Shown here piece after piece: positions 9,658 to 64,000 of a DNA stretch of 64,000 nt. How positions within the stretch are numbered: the first letter of the stretch is position 1; each line of letters opens with the position of its first letter. The stretch is from Candidatus Spongiisociaceae bacterium (lineage in GTDB: Bacteria > Actinomycetota > Acidimicrobiia > Spongiisociales > Spongiisociaceae): contig OZ251578.1 of the NCBI GenBank assembly GCA_965243835.1, forward strand, positions 277,573-341,572, in the 5' to 3' direction. The position numbers and the translations under genes were made by a program. The notes under the pieces are model-generated. The model was not told the origin of the DNA and searched no databases. It saw only the letters and a program-made list of their open reading frames with translations.

Positions 9658-10874
9658 TGGGCTGGGTGACCGAACACGCCCCCCTGTGGGAGGATCTGAA
9701 CGGGTGCATCCAATGCGGCCTGTGCCTGCCGGTCTGCCCCACTTTCCGACTCACCGGCCAGGAAACCGCCTCCCCCCGGGGCCGGTTGACGGCCATGTCG
9801 GCCGTGGCGTTGGGGATGCCCGTGGACGACCGGTTCGCCGGAATGATGGGATTGTGCCTGCAGTGCCGGGCGTGCGAAACCGCCTGTCCGTCGTTCGTCC
9901 CGTTCGGCCGGGCGATGGAGGGGGCCCGGGCGGAGGTTGCGGCCCAGGCGCCGGGGGCGGGGCGGCGGGTGCGCCGTCTGGTCACCACCCGCTTGTTGCG
10001 CAGCCGCCGCGCCCTGCGTTCTCTCACCCTGCTGGCGGGAGCGGCCCGCCGCACCGGCCTGCACCGGCTGGCCCCCCGAACCATACGGGCTTCCATAACC
10101 GGTTTGCGCCCTCCGCCGCGGCGTCCTCGCCCGGAGCTGGCCCGCCCCGCGGCGGGGCGGTCGCGGGGCCGGGCGGCCCTGCTGACCGGGTGCGTGATGG
10201 ACGTTTGGTTTCCCGAGGTGCACGAGGCGGCGGCGGATTTGCTGGCCCGGGCCGGCTACGAGGTGATCGTCCCCCCCGACCAGACTTGTTGCGGGGCCCT
10301 GGCCGCCCACGACGGCTGGGCGGACGAAGCCCGGCGGATGGCGGCGGTCAACCGGGAGGCTTTCCGGGAAGCCGACCTGGTGGTGGCCGACGCCGCCGGG
10401 TGCGGGGCCCATTTGAAGGAATACGGACATTGGACGGAAGGCGGAGAGGAGTTGGCGGCCAAGACGGCGGACATCACCGAGGTGGTGGCGGAGGCGATCG
10501 CCGACGGGCGGTTGCCCCGGTTGCCGGAGGGGGGGAGGGAGGCGGCGGTGCAGGACCCGTGCCATCTGCGCCACGCGCAACGCATCGTCGACCAGCCCCG
10601 GGCGGTGCTGGCCGCGGCCGGTTTGCGTCCGGTGGAGATCGACCCGGGCGGGCAGTGTTGCGGAGCGGCCGGCCTGTACTCCGCGTTGGAACCGGAGATG
10701 TCGGCCATGCTGGGCCGGGCCAAGGCCGACCAGGTGCGGGTCAGCGGGGCGGACACGGTGGCTTCCGCCAACCCGGGATGCGAAATCCAGTTGCGGACTT
10801 TCCTGGGCCGGGAGGCGAGGGTGGCCCATCCGGTGGAGTTGTACCGGGAGGCGTTGGCGGAGGCGGGCCGGTGA
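9657..10874 (+). CDS. glcF: Glycolate oxidase iron-sulfur subunit GlcF
   Basis: Two 4Fe-4S motifs (CIQCGLCLPVCP, CLQCRACETACP) and CCG cysteine-rich domains; 1-nt overlap with glcE. Confidence 0.85.
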   Translation: MGWVTEHAPLWEDLNGCIQCGLCLPVCPTFRLTGQETASPRGRLTAMSAVALGMPVDDRFAGMMGLCLQCRACETACPSFVPFGRAMEGARAEVAAQAPGAGRRVRRLVTTRLLRSRRALRSLTLLAGAARRTGLHRLAPRTIRASITGLRPPPRRPRPELARPAAGRSRGRAALLTGCVMDVWFPEVHEAAADLLARAGYEVIVPPDQTCCGALAAHDGWADEARRMAAVNREAFREADLVVADAAGCGAHLKEYGHWTEGGEELAAKTADITEVVAEAIADGRLPRLPEGGREAAVQDPCHLRHAQRIVDQPRAVLAAAGLRPVEIDPGGQCCGAAGLYSALEPEMSAMLGRAKADQVRVSGADTVASANPGCEIQLRTFLGREARVAHPVELYREALAEAGR

Positions 10875-14694: not shown

Positions 14695-16686
14695 ATGCCG
14701 CTACGTGAAACCCTGGACAACATCCGCAACGGACCCACCCCCGGCAACGAGGAGTCGGCCAAGATGTGGATTCTGGTTCCCATCCTTCAGGATTTGGGTT
14801 GGCAACCGTTTGATATCCAGTGGGAATATCAGGTGGGCCGGAGCAAAGGAAGGGTGGATGCCGCCCTAACTGGGCCAAAGGGAGTTACGGCTTTCATCGA
14901 AGCCAAAGCCCCCGGCAACCGTTTGGACGATCACGTCGAGCAGGTTTTGGGATACGCGTTCCAGGAGGGGGCGAACATCTGCGCGCTGACCACCGGCCTG
15001 GAGTGGTGGTTGTACCTGCCCGCCGAGACGGACTACAACTTCGACGAACGCCGTTTCGCCGAGTTGCGTCTCAAGGACGACCCGGTGGAACAACTGGCCA
15101 CCGATTTCGTCGCCTTCCTAGGCAAGGAAACATTATTAGACGGAGAAGCCGAGAAAAAGGCCAAGCAAGTCCTAAAAGCCCGCCGCGAGGCCGAACACTT
15201 GGACAAGGAGGTCCCCGGCATCTGGCGCGAAATGCTGGTAACCCCCGACGAAGAGCTGATAGAGCTGGTAAGCAAACGCGTCTACGAAAAAACTAACCTC
15301 CGCCCCACCTCTCAACAGGTAAACTTCGCCCTCACAGGCCGCCTTTCCCCACCCTCTACCAGCCCACGACGACCCGTTGACCCCCCAAATAAAGAGATTA
15401 AACCACCAACCAGCACGCCAGGACCTACGGCGATTCGATTGTGGGGAGAGACACAATCAGTTAAAAGCAATGCGGATATTCTTAGATGCGTTATTGATGG
15501 TCTTCTCGAACGAGGTGAGACTGAGTTTGAGAATATACCTGGAATAGGCGGTATCACTCGTACTCCTTATCAGCCCAAAATGAAGGATTATTATCAAGTG
15601 GGCTCCACCGGCATTTACTTTGTTACAGGAAAGGGCAGAGCCGTTATTGAAGATACTTATCGGCTATTAGAACACTTTGATTATACCCGTTCAGATTTAG
15701 AAATTATATATGGCAAGATGCCTCCACCAAATGGTATGAAATTGTGGGGAAAATACTATCAAGTTAAATCTTGGATTAGCATTTTGGATATTGTAGTAGA
15801 TTCTCTCTATGAACGCCATGGACACAATTTTGAACCTGGACTCGAGCTTCGTAATCAAAGAGGACCTTATATTTCTCGGGAATCTTCAGATATAGAAAGG
15901 CCCCGTCAGGTAGGCGCAAAGGATCTCTATTTGGATCGTAACATCGGACATTTGGAGGTTAAAGAACGCGCCAAAGAATTGCTTGAGGCTTTTGGATACA
16001 AAGCTTCTGATCTAGAAATTATAGAGAAAGAAAAAGCAAGCGGCTTTGAGTTCTTGGGTAAATACCATGAGGTGAAGCACAATTATCAAGTGCTGGTTGG
16101 TGTCGCCGAAGTTCTCTTCGAACAGCATGGTAACGATTTTGAAGGGGCCCTTGATTTGAAAGGTATATTACGTAAACCTGAGAGTGTCTCTCCTAAAAAT
16201 TATCGCGAAGTGGGCTCTTCGGGTATTTTTGTGAGATTGCCGGACGCTAAATTTTTTTCTAGGTCTTATCAATTGGTAGAATACTTTGGGTATAAAGCCA
16301 GTGCTTTAAGAATTGATACTACAACAGGTTCAGTAAATTATTCTACATTAGATATATCCAGAAGCAAGAGATATGTAAAGCCGGTTCGTATTAGACTGTT
16401 TGACGAGTACCATAAAGTCAAACTATGGAAAGAGATAATAATGCGGCTTGCGGATGTGCTTTATAGACGGCATCGCTCTGATTTTGATCGTGTGTTGGGT
16501 TTAGGGACTGAAAAGAACCCTTATGCTTCTCGCCTTTCTGTAGTGTTGGAGTCAGCGTATGAAGTTGGTAATTCGGGTATTTATATCGAAACAGGGCTAA
16601 GTTCCGATAATGTCAAAAGGCGCTCCAAGAAATTGTTAGAAGAATTCGGATACAAACCCGAAGAGTTAGAAATACTGTTTGATTAG
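14695..16686 (+). CDS. HsdR_N-like (PD-(D/E)XK) nuclease domain protein with Pro/Thr linker and four tandem copies of a novel ~85-aa module
   Basis: N-terminus EYQVGRSKGRVDAALTG...AFIEAKAPG...ALTTGLEWWLY matches the Type I R-subunit N-terminal fold. Four repeats carry (W/F)G.Y..VK......LY.RH..dFe then Y.VGsSGIY....LLE.FGY...L.I. The repeat region is about 40% GC. Confidence 0.75.
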   Translation: MPLRETLDNIRNGPTPGNEESAKMWILVPILQDLGWQPFDIQWEYQVGRSKGRVDAALTGPKGVTAFIEAKAPGNRLDDHVEQVLGYAFQEGANICALTTGLEWWLYLPAETDYNFDERRFAELRLKDDPVEQLATDFVAFLGKETLLDGEAEKKAKQVLKARREAEHLDKEVPGIWREMLVTPDEELIELVSKRVYEKTNLRPTSQQVNFALTGRLSPPSTSPRRPVDPPNKEIKPPTSTPGPTAIRLWGETQSVKSNADILRCVIDGLLERGETEFENIPGIGGITRTPYQPKMKDYYQVGSTGIYFVTGKGRAVIEDTYRLLEHFDYTRSDLEIIYGKMPPPNGMKLWGKYYQVKSWISILDIVVDSLYERHGHNFEPGLELRNQRGPYISRESSDIERPRQVGAKDLYLDRNIGHLEVKERAKELLEAFGYKASDLEIIEKEKASGFEFLGKYHEVKHNYQVLVGVAEVLFEQHGNDFEGALDLKGILRKPESVSPKNYREVGSSGIFVRLPDAKFFSRSYQLVEYFGYKASALRIDTTTGSVNYSTLDISRSKRYVKPVRIRLFDEYHKVKLWKEIIMRLADVLYRRHRSDFDRVLGLGTEKNPYASRLSVVLESAYEVGNSGIYIETGLSSDNVKRRSKKLLEEFGYKPEELEILFD

Positions 16687-16701: not shown

Positions 16702-18960
16702 ATGTCTGGCTTGATTGACGTTAAATTGATAGACGGTACGGCGCGTACTATACGTGAGCTGTTTACCGGGCGTAAGTACGGGATAGAGTACTACCAGCGT
16801 GAATACACTTGGACGGAGTCCAATGTGGTGGAGTTGCTTGATGACCTAACCACTCGTTTTCTGGATGAATATACGGAAGGCGATGAGCGTCATAAGGTCG
16901 CCTCTTACCGTTATTATTTCCTGGGACCAATAGTTACCAACCTATCCGAAGAAGGGATACGTTACTTGGTGGATGGACAGCAACGCCTTACTACCCTAAC
17001 CTTATTGTTGATTTGTCTAGATCATATGTCTAAAGATGAGGATGGGGTGGAAAGTTTGGAACAGTTAGTTTATTCGCAAAAGTTCGGTTCACGCACATTT
17101 AACATAAACGTAGACGAGCGTGAAGAAGTGATGGCTACTATTCTGGATGGTTCTTCCTCTTTTGATACGGAGGACAAGTCGATATCGGTTCGCAATATAT
17201 GGGAGAGATATCAGAATGTAGTGGATCATTTTCCTGAAGAACTCAAAGGAGAATCATTAGTGTTTTTTATTGATTGGTTACTGGAACGGGTGGTACTAGT
17301 CGAGATAGGCACCACCGACCAGGATATGGCATTAGAGGTTTTTGAAACAATGAACGACCGGGGTTTGCGTTTATCCAATACCGATATGTTGAAAGCTTTT
17401 CTACTGAGCAAACTTGACGACCGTCAGCGAATTGAAAAGACGAACGAGCTATGGCGTAATCGTATAACGGAGCTGGCAGATTTAGATAAGAATGCTGACT
17501 CGGATTTTCTGAAGCATTGGTTACGCGGGCATTACGCCGATTCAATCCGGGAACAGAAACGGGGTGCTACTCCACGCGACTTCGATATAATTGGTACCGC
17601 GTATCATAAATGGGTGCGCGATAATTGTGAAAGAATAGGGTTGTATAATTCTAGTGATTTCATGGGTTTTGCCTATCAAGACTTTGACCGAATGAGCAAT
17701 AGATACAAGCAACTTCTGCAGGCTAGCTGGGAAATGACCCCTGGTTTGGAGCACTTATTTTACAACGCCACAGTGGGAATAACACTCCAATACTTGCCTA
17801 TTATAGCGGCTTTAACTCCCGATGATGATGAAGAAATTTTTCGATCAAAAACTCGTCTTATATCTGCTTATATTGACTTGTGGATGGCGAGGCTTATGGT
17901 TAACTATCGTAACTATGGATATTCAACTATTTTACATAGAATGTTTCGATTGAGTAAAGAACTCCGTAATCGAGAATTGCATGAAGTTCAAGAAATATTG
18001 GCGAATTGGGTAGCTGGCTTACCAGATTCCTTTGAGGGCGTTATGCATTTTCGGCTTCACGGTCAGAATCGTTGGCGCATTAAATACTTGTTGTCACGGA
18101 TGACAGCTTGGGTTGAGGCGAATTGCGACGGTAGCGGTCAGTTTGTTGATTATATGGATTCACAACGCCAAAGCCCTTATGAGGTGGAACATATTTGGGC
18201 TAATAAATACGCTCGACATATAGATGAGTTTGACAGCCCGGATGACTTCGATCGTAGTAGAAATCGTTTTGGTGCTTTAGTGCTTTTACCGAAGAGTTTC
18301 AACGCCAGCTATGGTGATAAGCCTTATTCAGAAAAGGTAGAACATTATTACGGTCAGAATTTATTGGCACGGTCGCTTCACCCTAGAACCTACGAGAATA
18401 ATCCTTCTTTTAAAGGATTTATAGCGAAGACAGGGTTGCCTTTTAAACCTTATCCCGATTCTTTTACAAAGGATAATATAGAAGAGAGACAGGATTTGTA
18501 TCGTCAGATTTGTGAGCAGATTTGGGATCCGGACACCTTGGGTTTGGGCGGAGGCGCATCACAATCAATCCCTAAAAGTACTAACCCTAAAATGACTAAA
18601 AGAAATATGTCTACATATGACATTTTGGGATTGGAGTTGTTTGGTGAATATTATCAGGCGGAACATAAATACCCAAAATACCAAGTACTACAAATTGTTG
18701 CTGATGAAGTCTACAAGAGGCACCGTGATGATTTTCATCGGGCGTTGGAGATCGGCGGCTTTGTAAGTGAGCCTTCTCCTCAAAACCCTGATGAATATTA
18801 TAAGATAGGGTCATCGGGAGTATATGTTCTTGCCGCCTCGGGGCTTTTTGATAAGTCGTATAAACTATTGGACCTTTTTGGTTACCAACGGGGGGCTCTT
18901 AGAATTGACACTTCGGAAGGGCCCATCAACCCTTCAACTTATGAGGTGGATGATGAGTAG
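16702..18960 (+). CDS. DUF262/DUF1524 (GmrSD/BrxU-like) Type IV restriction-type protein with one C-terminal copy of the shared module
   Basis: DUF262 hallmark YLVDGQQRLTTLTLLL; DUF1524 His-Me motif YEVEHIWANKYARH; C-terminal LGLELFGEYYQAEHKYPKYQVLQIVADEVYKRHRDDF...YYKIGSSGVYVL...LLDLFGYQRGALRI; RBS gaaaggaagg 7 nt upstream. Confidence 0.8.
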   Translation: MSGLIDVKLIDGTARTIRELFTGRKYGIEYYQREYTWTESNVVELLDDLTTRFLDEYTEGDERHKVASYRYYFLGPIVTNLSEEGIRYLVDGQQRLTTLTLLLICLDHMSKDEDGVESLEQLVYSQKFGSRTFNINVDEREEVMATILDGSSSFDTEDKSISVRNIWERYQNVVDHFPEELKGESLVFFIDWLLERVVLVEIGTTDQDMALEVFETMNDRGLRLSNTDMLKAFLLSKLDDRQRIEKTNELWRNRITELADLDKNADSDFLKHWLRGHYADSIREQKRGATPRDFDIIGTAYHKWVRDNCERIGLYNSSDFMGFAYQDFDRMSNRYKQLLQASWEMTPGLEHLFYNATVGITLQYLPIIAALTPDDDEEIFRSKTRLISAYIDLWMARLMVNYRNYGYSTILHRMFRLSKELRNRELHEVQEILANWVAGLPDSFEGVMHFRLHGQNRWRIKYLLSRMTAWVEANCDGSGQFVDYMDSQRQSPYEVEHIWANKYARHIDEFDSPDDFDRSRNRFGALVLLPKSFNASYGDKPYSEKVEHYYGQNLLARSLHPRTYENNPSFKGFIAKTGLPFKPYPDSFTKDNIEERQDLYRQICEQIWDPDTLGLGGGASQSIPKSTNPKMTKRNMSTYDILGLELFGEYYQAEHKYPKYQVLQIVADEVYKRHRDDFHRALEIGGFVSEPSPQNPDEYYKIGSSGVYVLAASGLFDKSYKLLDLFGYQRGALRIDTSEGPINPSTYEVDDE

Positions 18961-41917: not shown

Positions 41918-42001
41918 GCCGGGATGCCCGAGCGGCCAAAGGGAGCAGACTGTAAATCTGCCGGCTAAGCCTACGGAGGTTCGAATCCTTCTCCCGGCAC
42001 C
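41918..42001 (+). tRNA. tRNA-Tyr (GTA)
   Basis: Acceptor gccggga/tcccggc, anticodon loop actgtaaatc, long variable arm, TPsiC ggttcgaatcc. Confidence 0.8.
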
Positions 42002-42049
42002 GACCAGAACCGGACCGAACCCGGAACTGGTATCCTGACAAGACCCATC

Positions 42050-42123
42050 GCCCCCTTAGCTCAGTTGGCCAGAGCGCCTCCATGGTAAGGAGGAGGTCTC
42101 CGGTTCGAATCCGGAAGGGGGCT
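42050..42123 (+). tRNA. tRNA-Thr (GGT)
   Basis: Acceptor gccccct/agggggc, anticodon loop atggtaa. Confidence 0.8.
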
Positions 42124-42144
42124 CGACGGCCTTGGGCCGCAGGC

Positions 42145-42218
42145 GGCGGCGTAGCTCAGTCGGTAAGAGCGCTCGACTCATAATCGAGAGGTCGGCAGTT
42201 CAAGTCTGCCCGCCGCTA
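42145..42218 (+). tRNA. tRNA-Met (CAT), elongator type (could be tRNA-Ile2/lysidine)
   Basis: D arm gctcagtcggtaagagc, anticodon loop ctcataa, T arm ggcagttcaagtctgcc; anticodon stem lacks the initiator 3xGC signature. Confidence 0.7.
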
Positions 42219-45801: not shown

Positions 45802-45877
45802 AGGGGCGTAGCTCGAAATTGGTTAGAGCGCCGGTCTCCAAAACCGGAGGTTGGGGGTTCGAGTCCCTCCGCCCCTG
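45802..45877 (+). tRNA. tRNA-Trp (CCA)
   Basis: Acceptor aggggcg/cgcccct, anticodon loop ctccaaa. Confidence 0.85.
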
Positions 45878-51713: not shown

Positions 51714-51800
51714 GCGCTCATCCAGAGCGGTGGAGGGACAGGCCCTGCGAAACCGCGGCAACCGTATGACCGGTGCCAATGCCTGAACGATGAGATAAGC
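51714..51800 (+). promoter_or_regulatory. SAM-I (S-box) riboswitch aptamer
   Basis: ctcatccagagcggtggagggacaggccctgcgaaaccgcggcaaccgtatgaccggtgccaatgcctgaacgatgag matches the S-box consensus (P1 ctcatc/gatgag, GGTGGAGGGAC, GGCAACC, GGTGCCAAT). Confidence 0.7.
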
Positions 51801-54107: not shown

Positions 54108-57086
54108 ATGATGGCCCAGGCGGGAGCGAGGACGGCGGAGATGGCCGGCAGGGTTATCTCCGGGCAAGCCGAGGACGACATCAGAGCCGCCCTGCGCAAC
54201 CTGTTAGAAGAGATGGGCGCCGCACGCGCCGCGCAACTTTCGTTCGCCGGCGGCGATGAAGCGGATATGGTGATTGAGGAGTGGTCCGTCGTCATCGAGA
54301 CCAAAAGCAAGGGCATTAGCGACTTCTCGGCTCCGGGTAGCGGAAGCCGCGTCGGGGAAACCGCTTTTGATCAACTGGGCCGTTATCATGGTCATTTGGA
54401 TGGCCTTCCCGAATACACGCAACAAAAGGGTAGTTGGCTAGGTGTTATTACCAACGGCAGACGGTGGTCGACGCGGATCTGGTCGGATCAGGGCGCGGTG
54501 GAGCTGGCAAGCGATCGGGAGTTTCTGCCGGGAAACGAAGCCGCCTTGATAGAATGGTTGTCTAACTTGTTGATAGAAAGGCGAAAGTATCAACCTTTCC
54601 CATCGGATCCGGGTGAAGTATTTAATCCTTTTGCCAACGAACTTTTGATGATGACCCAGACGGACTGGCCTAATTCTCAAAAGAAATCCTATGCTACGCA
54701 AAAGGATTTGTGGCTGGAAATACTTGAAGGATCAGGTATGGGGGTAGTTACCGACGAGGAAGCTTTGTTTCGCCGTCATTGTTTTCTAGTATCGCTAGCG
54801 CGAGCGGTGGAAGCGTCTATGGAGAAGGACCCTCCCCCTGTTCTTGATTCAAATAGGATGGTGGGATTTTCATCTTGGGTGGCAGAAACGAATGATGGTA
54901 GAGAGTGGTTGGATAAAATGTACAAACAAGTGCTTTCTTATGATTGGCAGAATACAGGTCGTGACGCTTTACGTGAAGTGTATGAAACAACCGTAGACAA
55001 AAGAAACCGGCACGCGTTTGGAGAATACTATACCCCTGGTTGGGTGGCGGCTATGGTGGTAGAGCGGGTATTGGATGATGACTGGCTCAGCCGCTGTTTA
55101 ACGGCCGGTGAGAGCCCTCAGCCCGGCTACGGTGTTCTGGATCCCGCTTGTGGTTCCGGCACCTTTTTGTATCATGCGGCCAAAAGAATATACTCTTATT
55201 TGAACACCGCACCGGACGCATCCCGGCTACTGGATGTACAGAAGGCGGATATTGTGGCTAATCTGGTTGTGGGAATAGATATTCATCCGGTTGCAGTGGA
55301 GTTGGCGAAGATTACGTTGCTCACGGCCTTTCCGCCCGGGGTTTCACCTCGCAGGGGAAAAGACGCCCTGAGGGTTTTCCAAGGGGATGCGTTGCTGGCT
55401 GATTGGCAGACGCATGCCCTGTTTCGTAATCCCGAGTTGGAAGGCGAATTATATGAGTTTGAATCACCTCAAGGAAGAGAATATTTTATACCTCGCTTTT
55501 TTGCCCTCCGGCCTGAATTTGGGCAACAGATTAAGACGATGTTGGATGCTGTTATTCGCGGCGATCATCTTCCCCGGCATTTGTTGGAAGGTGACGAAAG
55601 TTTGGATCAGTTGTTATTGGAAAGTTATGATACTCTAAAAACTCTCGTACAAGTAGAGCAAAATGGGGTTTGGGCGTGGCGTATTTTCAATTCCGTATCT
55701 CCGCTACTGCTCTCCTTAACCAAGGTAGATAGAATTGTGGCTAACCCACCGTGGGTGGTAATGTCTTCTATACAAGATCGCCGGAAAAGGGTTTGCGAAA
55801 GCCTGCTTAAAGATCATCAACTTTGGCCTGGAAAGAATTTGGCCGCTAAAACCAATCTGGCGGCTCTTTTCGTATTCCGTACGGCAGTCGAATATTTACA
55901 CTATAAACGAAAAGGAAATTTCGCCTGCGGTTGGGTACTTCCCTGGGGATCTTTGCAAGGTGAAAACTGGGGGTTTTTGCGAGAGAAGATTAGTCCCGAA
56001 ACACTAGATTTGGGCGATGTCAAACAGCCTCCTTTTACTGGTGATGTGTCCTGTGTTTGGTTTGAAGGATCTGCTATAACCGATGATAAATTAAATAAGA
56101 TAGCTAATAACGTTTCCGGCCAAATTGTGTCGCGCGATGCCGACGATTGGAGTTTAGCCCAAACCAGACTCAGAATTTCAACAGCTGAAATACCCCGCCA
56201 AGAAACTTCCGGCTACTACGACGGGAAAAAATCATTGTTTAGGCAAGGTGCCTCCCTTGTACCTCATACCCTGGTCAAGATACAAGAATCTCGGACGTCG
56301 CCATCCGGAAACGACCGTTTGTTAATTACAACGGCCGCCAGCGTAAAAGGTGTCTGGGCCAATATCTCTCCTCATAAAGACCAAGAGATTCCAAAAAGAT
56401 GGTCCAAGGAAACCGCGGGGGGAGAACACCTGCTTCCCTTCGTATTAAGGATGCCCTTTGATAGATTCGTCATCCCTGTTAACTCTACGGGGAAGAATCT
56501 AATGTCGGAATCAGCATCATTGCAAGAAGAATATTGGTGGAACGCCAACAAGGATTATTCCGAAAATGCGGGGGGCGGACAGAGCACTCCTAGAACTTTA
56601 TATTCCCAAATAGATCATCATCAAAAATTGTCTTCTCAATTATCAAGGAAAGATGGTTGGGTAGTAACCTACAATAAATCTGGTTCTAGATTAAGGTCCG
56701 CCCGTACTAATAAACGCCGTTTAATACTTATGGATCAGCTTTATTGGTATACGTGCGACTCCGAGGAGGAGTCTGGATACCTGGTTAGTTTGATGAACTC
56801 TGATTACCTACAGGTACATTTTAGATACGCAAAAACCTCCTGGCGTGATTTTCATACCAACCCCTGGAAAAAGGTGCCGATACCAAAGTACGACCCTGGC
56901 GACGCTACTCACCGAAAACTGGCGAATCTGTGTTTGGATGCCGAAAGTATCGCCATGGGATTTCTCCGGAGTAGCACCGCCCGGGGCTTGGGGCAGCCGG
57001 CAACTTCCAAATTGATAAGAGCCGAGATCGTCGAAAACGGCCTGATGGCGGCAATAGACAACCAGGTCGAAAAAATAATTCCCTAA
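54108..57086 (+). CDS. Type IIG/IIL-like fused restriction endonuclease - N6-adenine DNA methyltransferase (MmeI-like architecture)
   Basis: N-terminal HsdR_N/Mrr-like PD-(D/E)XK (GGDEADMVIEEWSVVIETKSKG...GVITNGRRWSTRIW). MTase motif X EYYTPGWV, motif I VLDPACGSGTFLY, motif IV IVANPPWV. Long C-terminal putative specificity region. About 45% GC after a GC-rich first 300 nt. Confidence 0.7.
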   Translation: MMAQAGARTAEMAGRVISGQAEDDIRAALRNLLEEMGAARAAQLSFAGGDEADMVIEEWSVVIETKSKGISDFSAPGSGSRVGETAFDQLGRYHGHLDGLPEYTQQKGSWLGVITNGRRWSTRIWSDQGAVELASDREFLPGNEAALIEWLSNLLIERRKYQPFPSDPGEVFNPFANELLMMTQTDWPNSQKKSYATQKDLWLEILEGSGMGVVTDEEALFRRHCFLVSLARAVEASMEKDPPPVLDSNRMVGFSSWVAETNDGREWLDKMYKQVLSYDWQNTGRDALREVYETTVDKRNRHAFGEYYTPGWVAAMVVERVLDDDWLSRCLTAGESPQPGYGVLDPACGSGTFLYHAAKRIYSYLNTAPDASRLLDVQKADIVANLVVGIDIHPVAVELAKITLLTAFPPGVSPRRGKDALRVFQGDALLADWQTHALFRNPELEGELYEFESPQGREYFIPRFFALRPEFGQQIKTMLDAVIRGDHLPRHLLEGDESLDQLLLESYDTLKTLVQVEQNGVWAWRIFNSVSPLLLSLTKVDRIVANPPWVVMSSIQDRRKRVCESLLKDHQLWPGKNLAAKTNLAALFVFRTAVEYLHYKRKGNFACGWVLPWGSLQGENWGFLREKISPETLDLGDVKQPPFTGDVSCVWFEGSAITDDKLNKIANNVSGQIVSRDADDWSLAQTRLRISTAEIPRQETSGYYDGKKSLFRQGASLVPHTLVKIQESRTSPSGNDRLLITTAASVKGVWANISPHKDQEIPKRWSKETAGGEHLLPFVLRMPFDRFVIPVNSTGKNLMSESASLQEEYWWNANKDYSENAGGGQSTPRTLYSQIDHHQKLSSQLSRKDGWVVTYNKSGSRLRSARTNKRRLILMDQLYWYTCDSEEESGYLVSLMNSDYLQVHFRYAKTSWRDFHTNPWKKVPIPKYDPGDATHRKLANLCLDAESIAMGFLRSSTARGLGQPATSKLIRAEIVENGLMAAIDNQVEKIIP

Positions 57087-57105
57087 GACCGGTTGCCGGA
57101 AGAGG

Positions 57106-57663
57106 TCATGGAGGGCTTGGCGGGCGGCTCCGACTCCGCACATTCCGCGCACGCCGGGCCCGGGCGGGGCCCAGGGCCCCGGCGGCGATGTCCCCGCCCC
57201 GGTAGTTGGGGTTGTATTCCTCCAGGTCGGCGGGGGTCAGCACATTGCGGGCCAGCATCGCGTCGCCGAAGCCGGGCGCGTACCGCTCGATTTGCCCCTC
57301 GATCAGTTCCCACATCGCAGGACCCTCCCGGGACTCATCGCGATACCCGTTGGGAACCTGGGCGTACGCCCAGGTGGTGTGGCGCCCCGGCGGGGCCCGG
57401 CCGGGATCGAATAGGCTTTGCTGGCCGACCAGAACGAAGGGATGCCGCGCCGCCCGCCCCGCGGCTACGGAGCGCAGGGCGGCGTCTACCTCCCCGGCTT
57501 CGCCTCCCAGATGCACCACCCCCGCCCGATGGCATTCGGGAGCGGTCCACGGGATGGGCGCGGCCAAGGCGTAGTCCGCTTTGTAGCAAGAGGGTGACAA
57601 CGTTGCCGTTTTGCCGCCTCCCGCTCCTAGTTCAACACGAGGATGGGCGCCAGGTCCAGGCAA
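57106..57663 (-). pseudogene. Remnant (C-terminal ~185 aa) of a phytoene desaturase-family FAD oxidoreductase, lacking the N-terminal FAD-binding domain and with a corrupted 3' end
   Basis: DPGRAPPGRHTTWAYAQVP...IERYAPGFGDAMLARNVLTPADLEEYNPNYRGGDI matches the C-terminal block of the intact paralog at 32643-34217; no Rossmann N-terminus upstream. Confidence 0.45.
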
Positions 57664-57750
57664 ATAGGGGCGGCCGGTGGGACTCCGGGGGGTCCTGTTA
57701 TGCGACCACCCCCGTGTTCGCGCGGAACGGGTTGCCGGTTGAGCCCGGTC

Positions 57751-58836
57751 TCAGGCGACATCGGCGGCGGATGTTGCGACGGGCGGGTTCCGGCGGTCCG
57801 CCAGCCGGGGCGTAGCCTGCGGTGAAGGAGGCGGGTCGGCGCGCAATGCGGACACCGCATTCACCTTGCGTTGCAACACGTTGGTGCGGGTGGAGGTTAG
57901 AGCTCCAAAAGACTTGTTCAAGGCGTTCAAGTCTTTTTCCACTTTGTTCGCCGCTACAATGTAGAGGTCCCATTGTTGTTCAAATTCGGATACCGCCTTG
58001 ATAATTTCCTGTCCGTGGGCCACCATCTGGAACGCGTCCATAACACTGCGGATCATCATCAGAATCGGAAACAGGTTGGCGGGTGAACACAAAACTACCT
58101 TGCGGGTTTCCGTGTATCGCACCAGGGAATTCTTCTGTTGCAAGATGATGCCCCACACCGATTCCACCGGGATGAACAGCAACGTGAACCCCACCCCGTC
58201 CTCATCTTGAACGTATCCCCGCTTTGTTATCGTTTTGACATGGCGATCTACATCAGACATAAACCGTTTTAGATGTTGATCCGCCTCCGGTTTGGTTTCG
58301 GCTTCCGCGTAGCGGCGGTAGTTGTCCAGCGGGAATTTGACATCCATATGCAACACCTTACCCTCCGGTAGCAGGAAAGTGAAGTCGGGCTTTGTACCGT
58401 TGGCTATTTTTGCCTGCTTGCGGTAGTTGACCTCTTCCATCATCCCCGCCGCCCGGATTACGTCCTCCGCCATCCGCTCCCCCCAGAGTCCCCGGTTTCG
58501 GGAATCATCCAGCAGGTTCTGCAACTGGCCGGTAGCGGCGGTCAGGGCGTCGTTGCTTTTGGCCACCTCCGACAGCCGTTCCCCGGTTTTCCCGCCTTGT
58601 TCCGCCAAGTCTTTCATCAGGCCTTGCACCTTGTCCAGCGATTCGCGCATCTGTTCGCGAACCCCTTCCAGGCCGGTCGTCAGGCCGGCGCTCAAAGCCG
58701 CCAGCGGGTCCGGGGCCGGGATCGCCTCCGCCGCTTCCCTCCGCCGGTTGCGTTTCCGCAGGGCGCTTGCCGTCCACCAAACCGCCGGCGCAACCAGCAG
58801 GATAAAGAGCGCAATGCCGATAATGGTGGCATCCAT
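57751..58836 (-). CDS. rmuC: DNA recombination protein RmuC
   Basis: N-terminal TM helix, coiled-coil, C-terminal RmuC block (LLFIPVESVWG...VVLCSPANLFPILMMI). Confidence 0.8.
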   Translation of the reverse strand: MDATIIGIALFILLVAPAVWWTASALRKRNRRREAAEAIPAPDPLAALSAGLTTGLEGVREQMRESLDKVQGLMKDLAEQGGKTGERLSEVAKSNDALTAATGQLQNLLDDSRNRGLWGERMAEDVIRAAGMMEEVNYRKQAKIANGTKPDFTFLLPEGKVLHMDVKFPLDNYRRYAEAETKPEADQHLKRFMSDVDRHVKTITKRGYVQDEDGVGFTLLFIPVESVWGIILQQKNSLVRYTETRKVVLCSPANLFPILMMIRSVMDAFQMVAHGQEIIKAVSEFEQQWDLYIVAANKVEKDLNALNKSFGALTSTRTNVLQRKVNAVSALRADPPPSPQATPRLADRRNPPVATSAADVA

Positions 58837-59087
58837 AGTTGCATCCTCCTTTGCCAATCGGGGCATGTATTGCCGATGTAAGGCAGTGTAAAGAGGGGGT
58901 GTGACAAACGGACGGCTATTCCCGTAACAGCCCCCGTTCCATGGAGGTGACATCCCTTTCAGGTTTCATCACCGGGGCGGCTGTGCACTTAGGGACGATT
59001 TAGCGGAGCTCCGATTACCTAGGAGGGAGACGATCGCGGCCGCGTGGGTGCTGGATGATGTGGATGCGGCCCGGCCCGGCGCGCCGA

Positions 59088-59729
59088 TTACCCTAGGAGG
59101 GCGACGATCGCGGCGCCCAATATTAGGGCCGCCGCCATTAGAACCGTTAAGCCAAACACGGATAGGCATCCCCGTTTGGGGGAACCGGTTTGGTATTGAT
59201 AGCCTGGTCGCTCCCGTTTCGAATACTGTGATGTCGTGCTTTCGGATTCCAAATACCCTTTGATGCGGTCTGCGGCGGAGGAGGCTTTGGAATGTATTTC
59301 CTCCAACGCCGCGAGCAGATTGGGCGTTTCCCGGTCGGCGGTTGCCGCCATCATCTCAAAGTTATGACGCATTCCCTGCTTGGTAAGGTTGGCCGACCCC
59401 AACAAGACGGCGCTTTTTGTCCGACCCTTGACAATCCAAGCCTTAGCGTGGGCGATAGATTCCCCGCCCGCCGTGTTTTTGCTGTACCAGTTCAATACAT
59501 TGACATCCCGGCGGTCAAGGAACTCCAAGGCTGTTTCATTGTCTTCTTCCGTAGCCTTGTCGAAACGGAACCGTTTGGCTTCACCGATAATCAGCGTTAC
59601 GGGCCGGCCGATGGTGCGCTTATGCAACCAGGCCAACCCCCAGACGCTGGTGTATCCGGTCAGAACAAACAGGCGGCCATGCGGATGCTCATCCAGGAAC
59701 TTGATGATGCGGTCTTCAGCGTTGGGCAT
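59088..59729 (-). CDS. Phospholipase D-like (single HKD motif) nuclease-family protein with C-terminal TM anchor
   Basis: HKD motif HAKAWIVKGRTKSAVLLGSANLT; C-terminal LSVFGLTVLMAAALILGAAIVALLG. Confidence 0.6.
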   Translation of the reverse strand: MPNAEDRIIKFLDEHPHGRLFVLTGYTSVWGLAWLHKRTIGRPVTLIIGEAKRFRFDKATEEDNETALEFLDRRDVNVLNWYSKNTAGGESIAHAKAWIVKGRTKSAVLLGSANLTKQGMRHNFEMMAATADRETPNLLAALEEIHSKASSAADRIKGYLESESTTSQYSKRERPGYQYQTGSPKRGCLSVFGLTVLMAAALILGAAIVALLG

Positions 59730-59764: not shown

Positions 59765-60538
59765 TTAGCGGGCGGTCCAGCCGCCGTCCACGGGCAACAC
59801 CGTTCCGGTGATGTAACTGGCGGCGTCGGAGGCGAGGAACAAGGCCGCCCCTTGGATTTCACATAGCTCCCCCCACCGTTTCAAGGCCACATCCTGGTTT
59901 ATAACCCGCACTGCGTGCGGGGTGTGTTGATGGTCGATGTTGAGGGCGGTGAGGAAGGGGCCGGGGGCGATGGCGTTGACCAGTACGCCGGCGTCCGCCC
60001 ATTCCATGGCCAGGGCCCGGGTGAGTTGGATGATCGCCCCTTTGCTGGTGGTGTAGGCGGTGCGGTCGGCCACTCCCACCAGTCCGAAAGTGGAGGAAAT
60101 GTTTACGACCCTCCCCTGGCCGGATTTTTTGAGGTGCGGGGCGGCGGCTTTGCACATCGCCCACGCCCCGGTCAGGTTGACCGCCATGGAACGTTCAAAA
60201 TCGGCTCGGCTGATTTCGTCTATGGGGCCGCGCACGATGATGCCCGCGTTGTTGACCAGAATGTCAAGGCCGCCCAGTTCGTCCGCCGTCCGGGCGACCG
60301 CCCGGGTTGCGTCCTCGTCCAAACTCACATCTCCCGGAATGGCGATGACCGTCCCGCCGGTGGTTTCCCCGATCCGCCGGGCGGTGTCGCTCAGGGTTTG
60401 CGGGTTGCGGCTCATCACGGCCACGGACGCCCCCGCCCAAGACAGGGCTTCGGCGATCGCCTCCCCCAACCCTTGAGACCCCCCGGTAACCAAAGCCGCC
60501 CGCCCCGTCAGCCGAAACATTTCAAGAGGATTTTCCAA
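59765..60538 (-). CDS. SDR family oxidoreductase
   Basis: TGGSQGLGEAIAEAL, NNAG, catalytic YTTSKGA. Confidence 0.85.
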   Translation of the reverse strand: MENPLEMFRLTGRAALVTGGSQGLGEAIAEALSWAGASVAVMSRNPQTLSDTARRIGETTGGTVIAIPGDVSLDEDATRAVARTADELGGLDILVNNAGIIVRGPIDEISRADFERSMAVNLTGAWAMCKAAAPHLKKSGQGRVVNISSTFGLVGVADRTAYTTSKGAIIQLTRALAMEWADAGVLVNAIAPGPFLTALNIDHQHTPHAVRVINQDVALKRWGELCEIQGAALFLASDAASYITGTVLPVDGGWTAR

Positions 60539-60682
60539 ACCCGCCTCCCATTGCGATACGCCGTAGGCCGAACTCTACCCATTCCTGCCGCGTTTCCATA
60601 TAAGTATGGCAATTACCCAAACGCCAAGTAAGCCGCCGCCCCCCACAGGAACACAAAGAGGCGATGAACGAGAGCCCAAAGG

Positions 60683-63600
60683 GCCGCAATGAGGGAGGGG
60701 CGAATTCGCCCCTCGTAGGTACGATTATTTTTGGATATGGCATTCACCCGTTTCTGCCGCAATGAGGGAGGGGCGAATTCGCCCCTCGTAGGCCGGCGAT
60801 CCAGTCCGGGTTGGCGGCGGCGGCGGTGCCGCAATGAGGGAGGGGCGAATTCGCCCCTCGTAGGCCGAAGCCGAACGCCGATAATGACCCCCCAACGCCA
60901 GCCGCAATGAGGGAGGGGCGAATTCGCCCCTCGTAGCCAACCATAAGTTTTTGGTGTTGTCCTGGTCTTCCGGGCCGCAATGAGGGAGGGGCGAATTCGC
61001 CCCTCGTAGGGTAGACCCAAGACGCCGCCGCTACATCGTATACGAGCCGCAATGAGGGAGGGGCGAATTCGCCCCTCGTAGAACCGGTTCCCCGGGGTTC
61101 GCCGCCGGCGCGGGTCGGCCGCAATGAGGGAGGGGCGAATTCGCCCCTCGTAGGAATCTCGTCCGTGTCCGGTTCCACCGGGATCACCTGCCGCAATGAG
61201 GGAGGGGCGAATTCGCCCCTCGTAGCCTTACGAACTGCGTGAAATGGCCGAGCGGGGGAAGCCGCAATGAGGGAGGGGCGAATTCGCCCCTCGTAGTCGG
61301 GAATGCTCTTTCCGGCTCGTTCGGCTTCTTCCACGCCGCAATGAGGGAGGGGCGAATTCGCCCCTCGTAGCGCCCCCCCCGGCCTATCCCGCCCGAACCC
61401 CTACCCGGCCGCAATGAGGGAGGGGCGAATTCGCCCCTCGTAGTGCCATCATTGACGTGTTTGTCAACAAGGTAGAAATCAAGCCGCAATGAGGGAGGGG
61501 CGAATTCGCCCCTCGTAGTCCGCCCGTTAGAGGCTTCTACGCCGGCTTCTATCGCGCCGCAATGAGGGAGGGGCGAATTCGCCCCTCGTAGCCACAAGAA
61601 ATCACCCAACACCTGCCCCACACTTCCGGCCGCAATGAGGGAGGGGCGAATTCGCCCCTCGTAGCCGCCGGACGGGGGGGTGGTAGATTCTTGGTTGTCA
61701 TGCCGCAATGAGGGAGGGGCGAATTCGCCCCTCGTAGGGCCGGGTTTTATGATGTGTCTCCATAGCCAGAAGGCGCCGCAATGAGGGAGGGGCGAATTCG
61801 CCCCTCGTAGGGGGCATTGGGGGACGGCTTCTAGCCGATGGGGGACTGCCGCAATGAGGGAGGGGCGAATTCGCCCCTCGTAGGGATTTGCCGAGGCCTC
61901 CCCTAACCGGATACCAGCCGCCGCAATGAGGGAGGGGCGAATTCGCCCCTCGTAGCCTCCTCCGCGGCCTCTGCGGTAGGCCTGCGGGAGCGGGCCGCAA
62001 TGAGGGAGGGGCGAATTCGCCCCTCGTAGCCGGCGCATCAGCTCTGGGAAGGTGTCCGCCCTCGTGCCGCAATGAGGGAGGGGCGAATTCGCCCCTCGTA
62101 GGAAGACCCCATCACCTTCACCTGCCCATCCACAACCCGCCGCAATGAGGGAGGGGCGAATTCGCCCCTCGTAGTCTATAGGCTCAGCAATGAAGTTGTT
62201 AGTTCCTACGCAGCCGCAATGAGGGAGGGGCGAATTCGCCCCTCGTAGTAAGAAACCTCGTTCCCTTCCCCGCCGATAATATAGGGCCGCAATGAGGGAG
62301 GGGCGAATTCGCCCCTCGTAGACCCGGACGATCCGGGCGGGGGCAACCCTCCCCCGGTGCCGCAATGAGGGAGGGGCGAATTCGCCCCTCGTAGGCGGGC
62401 GGTAAAGCGAGCGGTGAGGGCTCCACGAACAAGCCGCAATGAGGGAGGGGCGAATTCGCCCCTCGTAGCTCCGCGTAATCCTTCGCGGCCGAATCGCATA
62501 GACGAGCCGCAATGAGGGAGGGGCGAATTCGCCCCTCGTAGAGACACTGGCCGGATTACCATCGCTGGCCTGGGCGGTGCCGCAATGAGGGAGGGGCGAA
62601 TTCGCCCCTCGTAGTGGCCTGATGGCCTGGCGATCTCGCCGATGTCGGCCTGCCGCAATGAGGGAGGGGCGAATTCGCCCCTCGTAGACGGGCGGGTAAG
62701 TTGCGTGATATTGGCTCTTTCGTTGCCGCAATGAGGGAGGGGCGAATTCGCCCCTCGTAGGCAAACCGGCTCCCCCCGGCGCCAACCAGTGAAAGGGCCG
62801 CAATGAGGGAGGGGCGAATTCGCCCCTCGTAGATTTGCGGGGCAAGCCACTCCGCCGCCGTGTCCGGGCTGCCGCAATGAGGGAGGGGCGAATTCGCCCC
62901 TCGTAGGGCCCCGATACACTGTCCGCCAGCTGCTCCTGGAGCCGGCCGCAATGAGGGAGGGGCGAATTCGCCCCTCGTAGGGTGGGGGCTTTGCCGGGGG
63001 AACAAATGGGACTATTCGGGCCGCAATGAGGGAGGGGCGAATTCGCCCCTCGTAGCGCCATCACCGCCATCACCGACCTACTCACCACCCTGCCGCAATG
63101 AGGGAGGGGCGAATTCGCCCCTCGTAGACGCCCTGGCCGAGAGCGCAGTGTCCTTGATGCCCGCGCCGCAATGAGGGAGGGGCGAATTCGCCCCTCGTAG
63201 GTTTTATAGTTCATTCTTGGCCTTCGTTCTTATCCAGGCCGCAATGAGGGAGGGGCGAATTCGCCCCTCGTAGGGGCTTGTCCGTCTTCGTCTATCGTCC
63301 CTTCCGGGTAGCCGCAATGAGGGAGGGGCGAATTCGCCCCTCGTAGGAGCAGAAGCGGAGGGGGCTGGGGGGGAGGGGGAGACGCCGCAATGAGGGAGGG
63401 GCGAATTCGCCCCTCGTAGTCACCGCCCCGCCAATCACCGCCCCCCGCCACCGCCCGCCGCAATGAGGGAGGGGCGAATTCGCCCCTCGTAGGCGCTGGA
63501 GCGAGGGAAGCGTATCCGGCCTCATATCCGGCCGCAATGAGGGAGGGGCGAATTCGCCCCTCGTAGTTCCGGGTCGGCGGCGACCCGGCGGGCGGCTTGG

Positions 63601-64000
63601 TCGCCGCAATGAGGGAGGGGCGAATTCGCCCCTCGTAGGGGTGGATCAGCCGCTGAACGAGTTGCTGGTGGACAGGCCGCAATGAGGGAGGGGCGAATTC
63701 GCCCCTCGTAGTCGGGGAGCATTGCGCTCCCCCCTCATTGAAGCGGTGCCGCAATGAGGGAGGGGCGAATTCGCCCCTCGTAGAACACATCCCCCGACAA
63801 CCCATACTCCTGGCTAACGTGCCGCAATGAGGGAGGGGCGAATTCGCCCCTCGTAGACGTCCTTTCTTGTTAGGGTTTTATTCCCCTCCGTTGGCCGCAA
63901 TGAGGGAGGGGCGAATTCGCCCCTCGTAGTAGGACCACCCTCGTTGCCGGGCCGCCTGGTTAGCGAGCCGCAATGAGGGAGGGGCGAATTCGCCCCTCGT
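60683..64000. CRISPR. CRISPR array: 36-bp repeat GCCGCAATGAGGGAGGGGCGAATTCGCCCCTCGTAG, 46 repeats (last truncated by the window end), 45 spacers of 34-41 bp
   Basis: Repeat starts located by eye at 60683, 60756, 60828, 60901, 60974 ... 63967, period about 73 bp; the repeat contains a perfect 16-nt palindrome GGGGCGAATTCGCCCC; no cas genes in the window. Confidence 0.95.

What the first reader, a model, noticed from the sequence alone, without database searches (positions are those of the whole stretch)
60683..64000. Large CRISPR array (45 spacers) with a palindromic 36-bp repeat and no cas genes in view
The repeat GCCGCAATGAGGGAGGGGCGAATTCGCCCCTCGTAG does not end in the familiar GAAAC/ATAAACCG-type handles. 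It contains a perfect 16-nt palindrome. All repeats I inspected are identical, including the first one next to the SDR gene. That gives no degenerate terminal repeat to orient the array, so the leader and cas operon are presumably beyond nt 64000. The 130-bp stretch 60540-60682 is the only candidate leader here. Spacer content is unexplored. Some spacers are low-complexity G-rich (63347-63383 gagcagaagcggagggggctgggggggagggggagac; 63420-63456).
Basis: seen in the sequence. Interest (0 to 1): 0.5.

Follow-up and report, generated by a model that had tools for sequence, protein, structure and literature searches.

The report
Ordinary type I-G-family CRISPR array
This is a real, large CRISPR array whose repeat looks unusual only because it was read on the wrong strand; on the other strand it is a slightly divergent member of the well-studied type I-G repeat family, so it is an ordinary bacterial immune locus.

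Summary
There are 45 complete, identical 36-nt repeats from 60683, a 46th cut by the window end, and 45 unique spacers of 35-39 nt. No cas gene was found among the 41 ORFs scanned in the 60 kb upstream.

The repeat is not exotic. On the minus strand it reads CUAC-GAGGGGCG-AAUU-CGCCCCUC-CCUC-AUUGCGGC. That is the architecture of the characterised Thioalkalivibrio sulfidiphilus type I-G repeat: 36 nt, a 5'-proximal hairpin, CCUC, then an 8-nt handle (AUUGAAGC there).

A stem-only scan of reference genomes returned 32 array loci with 24 distinct repeats. All carry CCUCAUUGAAG, which was not in the query. In 17 of 18 loci with enough flank, cas4g/cas1g-cas2 lies about 0.5-0.6 kb upstream on the crRNA strand. 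In 0 of 18 does it lie on the trailer side.

I therefore read the array as transcribed on the minus strand, with leader and cas genes beyond nt 64000. The 60580-60682 stretch is then the trailer, not a leader. This is inferred, not seen.

Spacers match no phage, plasmid or window sequence.

One side finding deserves a look. Spacer 42 is a near-complete copy of a different, canonical I-G repeat.

Novelty: new member of a known kind. Interest is low.

The parts
60683..64000 (-). CRISPR array: 45 complete identical 36-nt repeats, a 46th truncated by the window end, and 45 spacers of 35-39 nt. Predicted crRNA sense is the minus strand.
   Evidence: Searches give the exact counts and spacing; a covariance model of type I-G family repeats hits all 46 copies on the minus strand at 21.6 bits. 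On the plus strand it reaches 15.7 bits in the 26 hits listed, and those cover only the palindrome.
60683..60718 (-). Predicted trailer-end (oldest) repeat, not degenerate. On the minus strand it reads CUAC / GAGGGGCG-AAUU-CGCCCCUC (8-bp hairpin) / CCUC / AUUGCGGC (predicted 8-nt 5' handle). Predicted Csb2 cleavage lies between window positions 60691 and 60690.
   Evidence: the MFE fold is an 8-bp stem with a 4-nt loop and a 12-nt single-stranded 3' tail. It has the same shape as the T. sulfidiphilus I-G repeat. The cleavage position is inferred from PMC9638904.
60580..60682 (.). Array-specific flank of 103 nt, predicted to be the trailer. It has no detectable homology to the relatives' sequence at this site and contains no degenerate repeat.
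   Evidence: homology to relatives starts at 60569-60579; the best identity to the repeat in the flank (20/36, at an offset whose last 11 nt overlap the first real repeat) is within the range seen in random window segments.
63967..64000 (-). The 46th repeat, cut by the window end. The array, the predicted leader and the predicted cas2-cas4g/cas1g continue beyond the window.
   Evidence: The layout is inferred.
63712..63747 (+). Spacer 42. On the + strand it reads TC-GGGGAGC-ATTGC-GCTCCCC-CCTC-ATTGAAGC-GGT. This is 33 nt of a different, canonical type I-G repeat plus 3 nt, in inverted orientation relative to the host repeats.
   Evidence: positions 22-35 match every family repeat; the family model hits 63719-63744 on the + strand at 17.8 bits, E about 0.006; it folds into a 7-bp stem with a 5-nt loop, as the T. 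sulfidiphilus repeat does.

Best explanation
This is a chromosomal CRISPR array of the type I-G (formerly I-U, 'GSU0054') repeat family, in an uncultured, probably actinobacterial genome. The mechanism below is inferred by homology.

1. The array is transcribed on the minus strand from a leader beyond nt 64000.
2. Each repeat folds into an 8-bp GC-rich hairpin.
3. The Cas6-like domain of Csb2 (a Cas5-Cas6 fusion) binds the hairpin and cuts 4 nt 3' of its base, after CCUC.
4. Mature crRNAs then carry the 8-nt 5' handle AUUGCGGC, a 35-39-nt spacer and a 28-nt 3' hairpin tail.
5. A Cas7g/Cas8g/Csb2 complex with Cas3g would use them against DNA.
6. New spacers would be added by Cas4g/Cas1g-Cas2 at the end beyond nt 64000.

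The end at 60683, next to the SDR gene, is the old (trailer) end.
For: SHOWN
- The array anatomy.
- The minus-strand repeat folds as 4 nt + 8-bp stem + 4-nt loop + 12-nt tail, at -17.2 kcal/mol; 0 of 200 shuffles fold as well.
- The characterised T. sulfidiphilus I-G repeat, GUCAUCCGCGGCAUUUAGCCGCGGCCUCAUUGAAGC, is also 36 nt. It has a 7-bp stem, and Csb2 cuts 4 nt 3' of it to leave the handle AUUGAAGC (PMC9638904). Our repeat shares CCUCAUUG in exactly the same register.
- I scanned GTDB reference genomes using only the stem (GGGGCGnnnnCGCCCC, twice, 45-65 nt apart). Thirty-two of the 119 loci it returned hold CRISPR-like arrays, with 24 distinct repeats, and all of them end in CCTCATTGAAG[C/T/G] (one has CTTC). 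That motif was not in the query.
- The two outer stem pairs differ from the family in a compensatory way (G-C and A-U in ours, C-G and C-G in the family).
- Family spacers are 35-41 nt with a mode of 37, as ours are.
- The family arrays are flanked by Cas4g/Cas1g (NF049935, 817 bits against a cutoff of 560), Cas2, Csb1/Cas7g, Csb2 and Cas3g.
- In 17 of 18 loci with at least 1 kb on the 5' side, cas4/1 lies upstream on the crRNA strand, 510-594 nt from the first repeat (1207 nt in one locus). In 0 of 18 is it on the trailer side.
- A covariance model built from the family plus T. sulfidiphilus, without our repeat, hits all 46 copies on the minus strand at 21.6 bits (E about 4e-4). Plus-strand hits score 15.7 bits and cover only the palindrome. 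Nothing else in the window scores below E = 0.8 except spacer 42.
- The closest relative (93.6% nt identity) keeps one degenerate repeat (33/36) at the same junction and in the same orientation.
- The 60 kb on the predicted trailer side shows no cas gene among the ORFs scanned. This fits the family layout.

INFERRED
- Transcription direction, the cleavage site, and the presence and type of cas genes.
Against: - No cas gene, leader or transcript is seen, because the window stops inside the array.
- The last four handle bases are CGGC. The family has AAG followed by C, T or G, so the handle matches only 6 of 8.
- The four bases 5' of the stem do not match the family.
- The stem identity with the 24 retrieved family repeats was imposed by my search pattern. 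Only the tail and the outer pairs are independent evidence.
- The exact repeat, and a relaxed pattern keeping GCAATGAGG, are absent from GTDB representative genomes and from JGI metagenomes. No close homologue with visible cas genes was therefore found.
- The trailer-end repeat is perfect, whereas several family arrays end in a degenerate copy.
- No protospacer was found, so no PAM could confirm the orientation.
- The model's E-values are rough because calibration was shortened.
Confidence: 0.8

Rival explanations
1. The array belongs to the type I-G family, but it is a secondary or orphan array. The genome's cas operon would be elsewhere, lost, or of another type that borrows these crRNAs, rather than just beyond nt 64000.
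For: - Some genomes in the family hold several separate arrays. OZ219754 has L020 and L043; OZ241350 has L069, L074 and L091.
- L009 has 3 kb of 5' flank without cas4/1.
- The locus is unstable in this lineage. The closest relative keeps only one degenerate repeat, and others have an amino-acid permease gene there instead.
Against: - 17 of 18 family loci with readable 5' flank have cas4g/cas1g-cas2 directly upstream.
- 46 perfectly identical repeats argue for a maintained, recently active array rather than a decaying orphan.
Confidence: 0.15
2. The array is transcribed on the plus strand from a leader in 60540-60682, and is processed by a different Cas6-type enzyme.
For: - The hairpin is a perfect palindrome and folds equally well on both strands, at -18.7 kcal/mol on the plus strand.
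- The repeat adjacent to this stretch is not degenerate.
- The stretch contains an AT-rich patch (ccatataagtatgg).
Against: - On the plus strand the hairpin is followed by only 4 nt (GUAG). No 8-nt handle could be cut 3' of the stem.
- The family model scores 6 bits lower on the plus strand.
- In related arrays the leader and cas genes are always on the other side.
- No promoter-like site was found in 60300-61000.
- I saw no copy of the conserved family leader motif there (by eye only).
- Bases 60540-60579 are conserved SDR-upstream sequence in relatives that lack an array.
Confidence: 0.04
3. It is not a CRISPR array but another tandem-repeat element, or a repetitive protein-coding gene. Long minus-strand ORFs cross it.
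For: the ORF listing reports ORFs of 676, 237 and 191 aa on the minus strand inside the array.
Against: - The period is 71-75 nt, mostly 73, which is not a multiple of 3. Any reading frame therefore changes at almost every unit.
- The spacers are all unique and of CRISPR-typical length.
- The ORFs exist only because the repeat has no stop codon in any minus-strand frame (read directly from the sequence).
- The repeat is homologous to repeats flanked by cas genes.
Confidence: 0.01

Closest known systems
Type I-G CRISPR repeat of Thioalkalivibrio sulfidiphilus (GUCAUCCGCGGCAUUUAGCCGCGGCCUCAUUGAAGC; Shangguan et al. 2022, PMC9638904)
   Same: - 36 nt long.
- GC-rich hairpin starting 4-5 nt from the 5' end.
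- A 12-nt single-stranded 3' tail.
- Identical CCUCAUUG in the same register.
- In that system Csb2 cuts 4 nt 3' of the stem to give an 8-nt handle.
   Different: - Different stem sequence, and 8 bp with a 4-nt loop here instead of 7 bp with a 5-nt loop.
- The handle ends in CGGC instead of AAGC.
- No cas genes are visible here, and processing is not shown.
Repeat family GTTTCCGGGGCGnnnnCGCCCCGGCCTCATTGAAGC. It occurs in 32 loci with 24 distinct repeats, in MAGs of Binatia, Gemmatimonadota (Longimicrobiales, Palauibacter), Alpha-, Gamma- and Deltaproteobacteria and Dehalococcoidia. The arrays are flanked by cas4g/cas1g, cas2, csb1, csb2 and cas3g.
   Same: - Same length, the same six inner stem pairs, and in some members the same AATT loop.
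- Same CCTCATTG.
- Same spacer-length distribution, with a mode of 37.
- 26 of 36 positions are identical to the nearest member (L054/L119).
   Different: - The two outer stem pairs are swapped in a compensatory way.
- The four 5' bases differ.
- The handle is ATTGCGGC, not ATTGAAG[C/T/G].
- The stem identity was imposed by the search pattern.
Geobacter sulfurreducens type I-U/I-G system (Almendros et al. 2019, PMC6547450) and Bifidobacterium animalis subsp. lactis type I-G (PMC9335239)
   Same: - Gene order in G. sulfurreducens is cas4/1-cas2-leader (205 bp)-array, with a predominant 36-bp spacer.
- B. lactis mature crRNA carries an 8-nt 5' handle.
- These are the layout and the product predicted here.
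   Different: - The PAM (TTN in Geobacter, TAT/TAC in B. lactis) could not be tested here, because no protospacer was found.
- I did not compare their repeat sequences with tools.

Membership tests
CRISPR array (generic) | Many near-identical direct repeats of 23-50 nt separated by unique spacers of similar length | tested here: met
   46 identical 36-nt repeats and 45 unique spacers of 35-39 nt.
Type I-G (I-U) CRISPR repeat family | 36-37-nt repeat with spacers of about 35-41 nt | tested here: met
   The repeat is 36 nt and the spacers are 35-39 nt (mode 37). The family has a mode of 37 and a range of 35-41. The T. sulfidiphilus repeat is 36 nt.
Type I-G (I-U) CRISPR repeat family | A 7-8-bp hairpin starting 4-5 nt from the 5' end, followed by a 12-nt unpaired tail (4 nt plus an 8-nt handle) | tested here: met
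   The minus-strand fold is ....((((((((....))))))))............. The T. sulfidiphilus repeat has the same shape.
Type I-G (I-U) CRISPR repeat family | Conserved CCUCAUUG immediately 3' of the stem | tested here: met
   It is identical in our repeat, in T. sulfidiphilus and in 23 of 24 family repeats; the remaining one has CTTC. The family model scores 21.6 bits, E about 4e-4, on the minus strand.
Type I-G (I-U) CRISPR repeat family | 8-nt handle AUUGAAGC | tested here: inconclusive
   Ours is AUUGCGGC, a 6 of 8 match. The last base already varies within the family (C, T or G), but the CG-for-AA change occurs in none of the 25 reference repeats. Whether Csb2 or the effector tolerates it is unknown. 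In T. sulfidiphilus, Csb2 does not bind the isolated handle, and in the complex the handle contacts no subunit other than Cas7.1.
Type I-G (I-U) CRISPR-Cas system | cas4g/cas1g fusion and cas2 directly upstream of the leader | not testable with these tools
   The predicted position is beyond nt 64000. The source contig could not be retrieved: P0001 is 100% identical and sits on a 3.18-Mb contig, but the look-up failed. The feature is present in 17 of 18 related loci.
Type I-G (I-U) CRISPR-Cas system | Effector genes csb1 (cas7g), csb2 (cas5-cas6 fusion), cas8g and cas3g in the genome | not testable with these tools
   None was found among the 41 window ORFs scanned. The rest of the genome was not available.
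Rfam CRISPR-DR families | A score at or above a family's gathering threshold | tested here: not met
   There was no CRISPR-DR hit at gathering score. The best hit was CRISPR-DR20 at 16.1 bits against a threshold of 42, E = 3, on the minus strand.

The most novel reading that the evidence does not exclude
Spacer 42 is a captured piece of a second, canonical type I-G repeat (stem GGGGAGC/GCUCCCC, handle AUUGAAGC). The closest relative carries a solitary, slightly degenerate copy of this array's own repeat about 0.5 kb from a phage prohead-protease gene fragment.

The most novel reading is a CRISPR-versus-CRISPR-mimic conflict. Mobile elements of this lineage would carry I-G repeats, as arrays, mini-arrays or solitary-repeat RNA anti-CRISPRs of the Racr kind (PMC10651486). 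The host array would have acquired immunity against one of them.
Probability: 0.15. Interest if true: 0.5.

Novelty: new member of a known kind. Interest (0 to 1): 0.2.

Why it matters
It matters little for CRISPR biology as such.

- It adds a divergent repeat (handle AUUGCGGC, swapped outer stem pairs) to the type I-G family, in an uncultured and probably actinobacterial lineage.
- It shows the locus is variable between close relatives: a full array here, a single relic repeat in one relative, and no repeat in others.
- The reading lesson is useful. A 'strange' repeat should be checked on both strands before it is called atypical.
- The 45 spacers are a potential host-virus link for this lineage once viromes from its habitat are available.
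- Spacer 42 is a small, concrete lead on conflict between CRISPR-bearing elements.

Tried and rejected
1. Rfam, both at gathering score and at permissive E-value: no CRISPR-DR family matched.
2. Exact repeat in GTDB representative genomes and in JGI metagenome contigs: 0 hits. A relaxed pattern, GCAATGAGGnnGGGGCGnnnnCGCCCC, in metagenomes: 0 hits.
3. Retrieving the source contig to read past nt 64000. Exact-protein look-ups of the SDR (two possible start codons), of the PLD nuclease and of the 100%-identical database protein P0001 all returned 'not on record'.
4. Look-ups of five relatives' SDR proteins. Four place an amino-acid permease gene at this site; one has a solo repeat. None has cas genes.
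5. blastn of the whole array against 50,697 phage records and 72,556 plasmid records. Only chance-level hits appeared (E = 0.02-0.9). No related repeat was found on plasmids.
6. IMG/VR exact scans for 28-nt cores of spacers 43, 44 and 45, and for the repeat copied in spacer 42: 0 hits.
8. Self-targeting within the window: none. The longest matches are 13-19 nt, in GC-rich or low-complexity sequence.
9. Search for a degenerate terminal repeat in 60480-60682: nothing above background.
10. Promoter and terminator scan of 60300-61000: nothing found.
11. A single-structure covariation count across all I-G repeats was abandoned. Repeats with 4-nt loops and those with 5-nt loops pair in different registers in an ungapped alignment.
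Full report
OBSERVATION

The region 60683-64000 holds 45 complete, identical copies of GCCGCAATGAGGGAGGGGCGAATTCGCCCCTCGTAG. A 46th copy is cut by the window end at 63967-64000. The repeats are separated by 45 different spacers of 35-39 nt, of which 25 are 37 nt. No other copy, even with six mismatches, occurs in the window. The perfect palindrome inside the repeat is 20 nt (GAGGGGCGAATTCGCCCCTC), not 16.

The neighbouring gene at 59765-60538 (minus strand) is a short-chain dehydrogenase. I scanned 41 ORFs: 40 against Pfam and 10 against PADLOC, with 9 in both sets. None is a cas gene. The window is ordinary chromosome. It carries EF-Tu, NusG, L1, ArgRS, four tRNAs and a SAM riboswitch, interspersed with restriction-type defence genes. 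The factual part of the finding stands.

WHAT THE REPEAT IS

On the minus strand it reads CUAC GAGGGGCG AAUU CGCCCCUC CCUC AUUGCGGC. This folds as an 8-bp hairpin that starts after 4 nt and is followed by a 12-nt unpaired tail.

That is the architecture of the only biochemically dissected type I-G repeat, from Thioalkalivibrio sulfidiphilus: GUCAUCCGCGGCAUUUAGCCGCGGCCUCAUUGAAGC. It is 36 nt with a 7-bp stem. Csb2 cuts it 4 nt 3' of the stem, leaving the 8-nt handle AUUGAAGC (PMC9638904). The eight bases CCUCAUUG are identical and in the same register in both repeats.

RELATED ARRAYS

The exact repeat is absent from GTDB representative genomes and from JGI metagenomes. I then scanned the genomes with only the stem, required twice at CRISPR spacing. 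Among the 119 loci returned, 32 hold CRISPR-like arrays with a period of 72-75 nt, and together they have 24 distinct repeats. All have the form nnnnCCGGGGCGnnnnCGCCCCGGCCTCATTGAAG[C/T/G].

The tail motif was not part of the query, so its presence in every array is independent evidence that our repeat belongs with them. The chance of CCTCATTG appearing in register is about 1.5e-5. Our two outer stem pairs (G-C, A-U) differ from the family's (C-G, C-G) on both sides, so pairing is preserved. Family spacers are 35-41 nt with a mode of 37, like ours.

A covariance model built from these repeats plus T. sulfidiphilus, without ours, hits all 46 window repeats on the minus strand at 21.6 bits (E about 4e-4, rough calibration). 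Plus-strand hits reach only 15.7 bits and cover just the palindrome.

WHICH CAS GENES GO WITH THIS FAMILY

The flanks of the family arrays encode:
- Cas4g/Cas1g (NCBIfam NF049935, 817 bits against a cutoff of 560)
- Cas2
- Csb1/Cas7g
- Csb2 (the Cas5-Cas6 fusion)
- Cas3g

. In L084 the order is csb1, csb2, an unidentified ORF, cas4g/cas1g, cas2, about 200 nt of leader, then the array.

In 17 of 18 loci with at least 1 kb on the 5' (GTTTCC) side, cas4/1 lies upstream on the crRNA strand. The distance to the first repeat is 510-594 nt, and 1207 nt in one locus. In 0 of 18 loci with at least 1 kb on the other side is it downstream. This matches the Geobacter sulfurreducens I-U/I-G layout of cas4/1, cas2, a 205-bp leader and the array, with 36-bp spacers and a TTN PAM (PMC6547450). 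It also matches the 8-nt handle seen by small-RNA sequencing in Bifidobacterium lactis (PMC9335239).

CONSEQUENCE FOR THE WINDOW (INFERRED)

The array is transcribed on the minus strand. Its leader, cas2 and cas4g/cas1g should lie beyond nt 64000. The end at 60683 is the trailer end. The 60 kb on that side shows no cas gene among the ORFs scanned, which is what the family layout predicts.

The candidate 'leader' at 60540-60682 is not supported:
- Bases up to 60569-60579 are conserved SDR-upstream sequence in relatives that lack the array.
- By eye I saw no copy of the duplicated CGCTCGAAA/GGTCGCAA-like motif that family leaders carry at about -55 and -155.
- No promoter-like site was found.

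One atypical point remains. The trailer-end repeat is perfect and no degenerate copy follows it, whereas several family arrays end in a degenerate copy.

GENOMIC CONTEXT AND RELATIVES

A 100%-identical SDR protein exists on a 3.18-Mb NCBI/ENA contig, but that contig could not be fetched.

Relatives with 91-93% identical SDR proteins (about 80-83% nt identity where measured, in L120 and L124) keep the SDR-PLD nuclease-RmuC block, mostly followed by a WhiB gene. This points to Actinomycetota. They have an amino-acid permease gene where our array sits.

The closest relative (L126/L127, 93.6% nt identity) has one solitary, slightly degenerate repeat at that junction: CTGCGAGGGGCGAATTCGCCCCTCCATCGTTGCGGC, 33 of 36 identical. 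It has the same orientation and lies 25 nt from the conserved block. No further repeat occurs in the 777 nt up to the contig end, where a fragment of a phage prohead-protease gene lies. A CRISPR locus at this site therefore predates the split of these two lineages, or has been exchanged between them, and the site is unstable.

SPACERS

blastn of the array against INPHARED phages and PLSDB plasmids gave only chance-level hits. Three leader-proximal spacers have no exact 28-nt match in IMG/VR. No spacer matches the rest of the window.

One spacer is remarkable. Spacer 42 (63712-63747) reads on the plus strand TC GGGGAGC ATTGC GCTCCCC CCTC ATTGAAGC GGT. That is 33 nt of a different type I-G repeat with the canonical handle, plus 3 nt of whatever followed it. 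It is inverted relative to the host repeats.

It is flanked by normal host repeats at normal spacing, so it is a true spacer taken from another I-G repeat unit. The source could be a second array in this genome, or a mobile element carrying an array, a mini-array or a solitary repeat. Phage-borne solitary repeats can act as RNA anti-CRISPRs (PMC10651486). That repeat is not in IMG/VR.

VERDICT

This is a genuine but ordinary CRISPR array and a new, somewhat divergent member of the type I-G repeat family. My confidence is:
- about 0.99 that it is a CRISPR array
- about 0.8-0.85 that it is an I-G-family array transcribed on the minus strand
- about 0.65 that I-G cas genes lie immediately beyond the window

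What is new is minor: the handle variant AUUGCGGC, presence/absence polymorphism of the locus among relatives, and a spacer copied from another CRISPR repeat.

Noticed in passing
window 63712-63747 (+): Spacer 42 is a near-complete copy (33 of 36 nt, plus 3 nt) of a different type I-G CRISPR repeat: stem GGGGAGC/GCTCCCC, loop ATTGC, then CCTC and the canonical handle ATTGAAGC. It is inverted relative to the host repeats. The array has therefore captured a piece of another I-G repeat unit, whose source is unknown.
   Followed up: partly
L126 778-813 (also L127 753-788); corresponds to the junction at window ~60580: The closest relative (93.6% nt identity over SDR-PLD-RmuC) has a single, slightly degenerate copy (33/36) of this array's repeat, 25 nt from the conserved SDR-upstream block. 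No other repeat lies in the 777 nt upstream. A phage prohead-protease (Peptidase_S78) gene fragment sits at the contig end. It could be an array relic or a solitary repeat unit on a phage-like element.
   Followed up: partly
window 60569-60580 versus L120, L124, L128, L130 (~9880-10000): Relatives with 91-93% identical SDR protein have an amino-acid permease gene directly upstream of the SDR gene, where this genome has the CRISPR array. The array site is a point of presence/absence variation. On the other side, synteny also breaks after RmuC at window ~57763: most relatives have WhiB there, while this genome has a type IIG enzyme.
   Followed up: partly
window 61184-63214, 62206-62919, 63230-63805 (-): Long minus-strand ORFs (676, 237 and 191 aa) run through the array because the repeat has no stop codon in any minus-strand frame. 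Gene callers could emit spurious proteins here. In relative L126, the SDR gene call was extended to 299 aa straight through the solo repeat.
   Followed up: yes
window 54108-57086 (+), 57751-58953 (-), 59088-59729 (-), 16702-18960 (+), 3619-4860 (+): Defence-type genes surround the array and are scattered in the window: a 992-aa type IIG restriction-methyltransferase with low third-position GC (probably acquired), RmuC, a PLD-family nuclease (DrmC/ZacB-like), a GmrSD-type type IV restriction enzyme, and a type II methyltransferase. ORFs 14695-16686 (663 aa), 57093-57815 and 4874-5752 have no family match.
   Followed up: partly
L009, L010, L012, L013, L054, L058, L060, L082, L094, L098, L110 and others; about 160 nt upstream of the first repeat: Leaders of the type I-G family arrays share a duplicated motif (GCGGTCGCA / CCGCTCGAAA-like) at roughly -55 and -155 from the first repeat, across several phyla. 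It may be a leader-recognition element. I saw it by eye only.
   Followed up: no
L029, L048, L059, L096, L106, L112 and many two-copy loci from Phycisphaerales MAGs: The stem-only pattern also hit short-period (31-44 nt) palindromic repeats that are not CRISPR arrays, in Prevotella, Pseudomonas and Phycisphaerales genomes. They look like REP-like elements sharing the GGGGCGnnnnCGCCCC hairpin.
   Followed up: no
window 51715-51796 (+); 41918-42218 and 45802-45877 (+): A SAM (S-box) riboswitch scoring 69.6 bits, and four tRNA genes flanking the tuf / nusG-rplK-rplA region. The NusG ORF as listed (380 aa, from a TTG start) places about 200 residues before the NusG domain.
   Followed up: no
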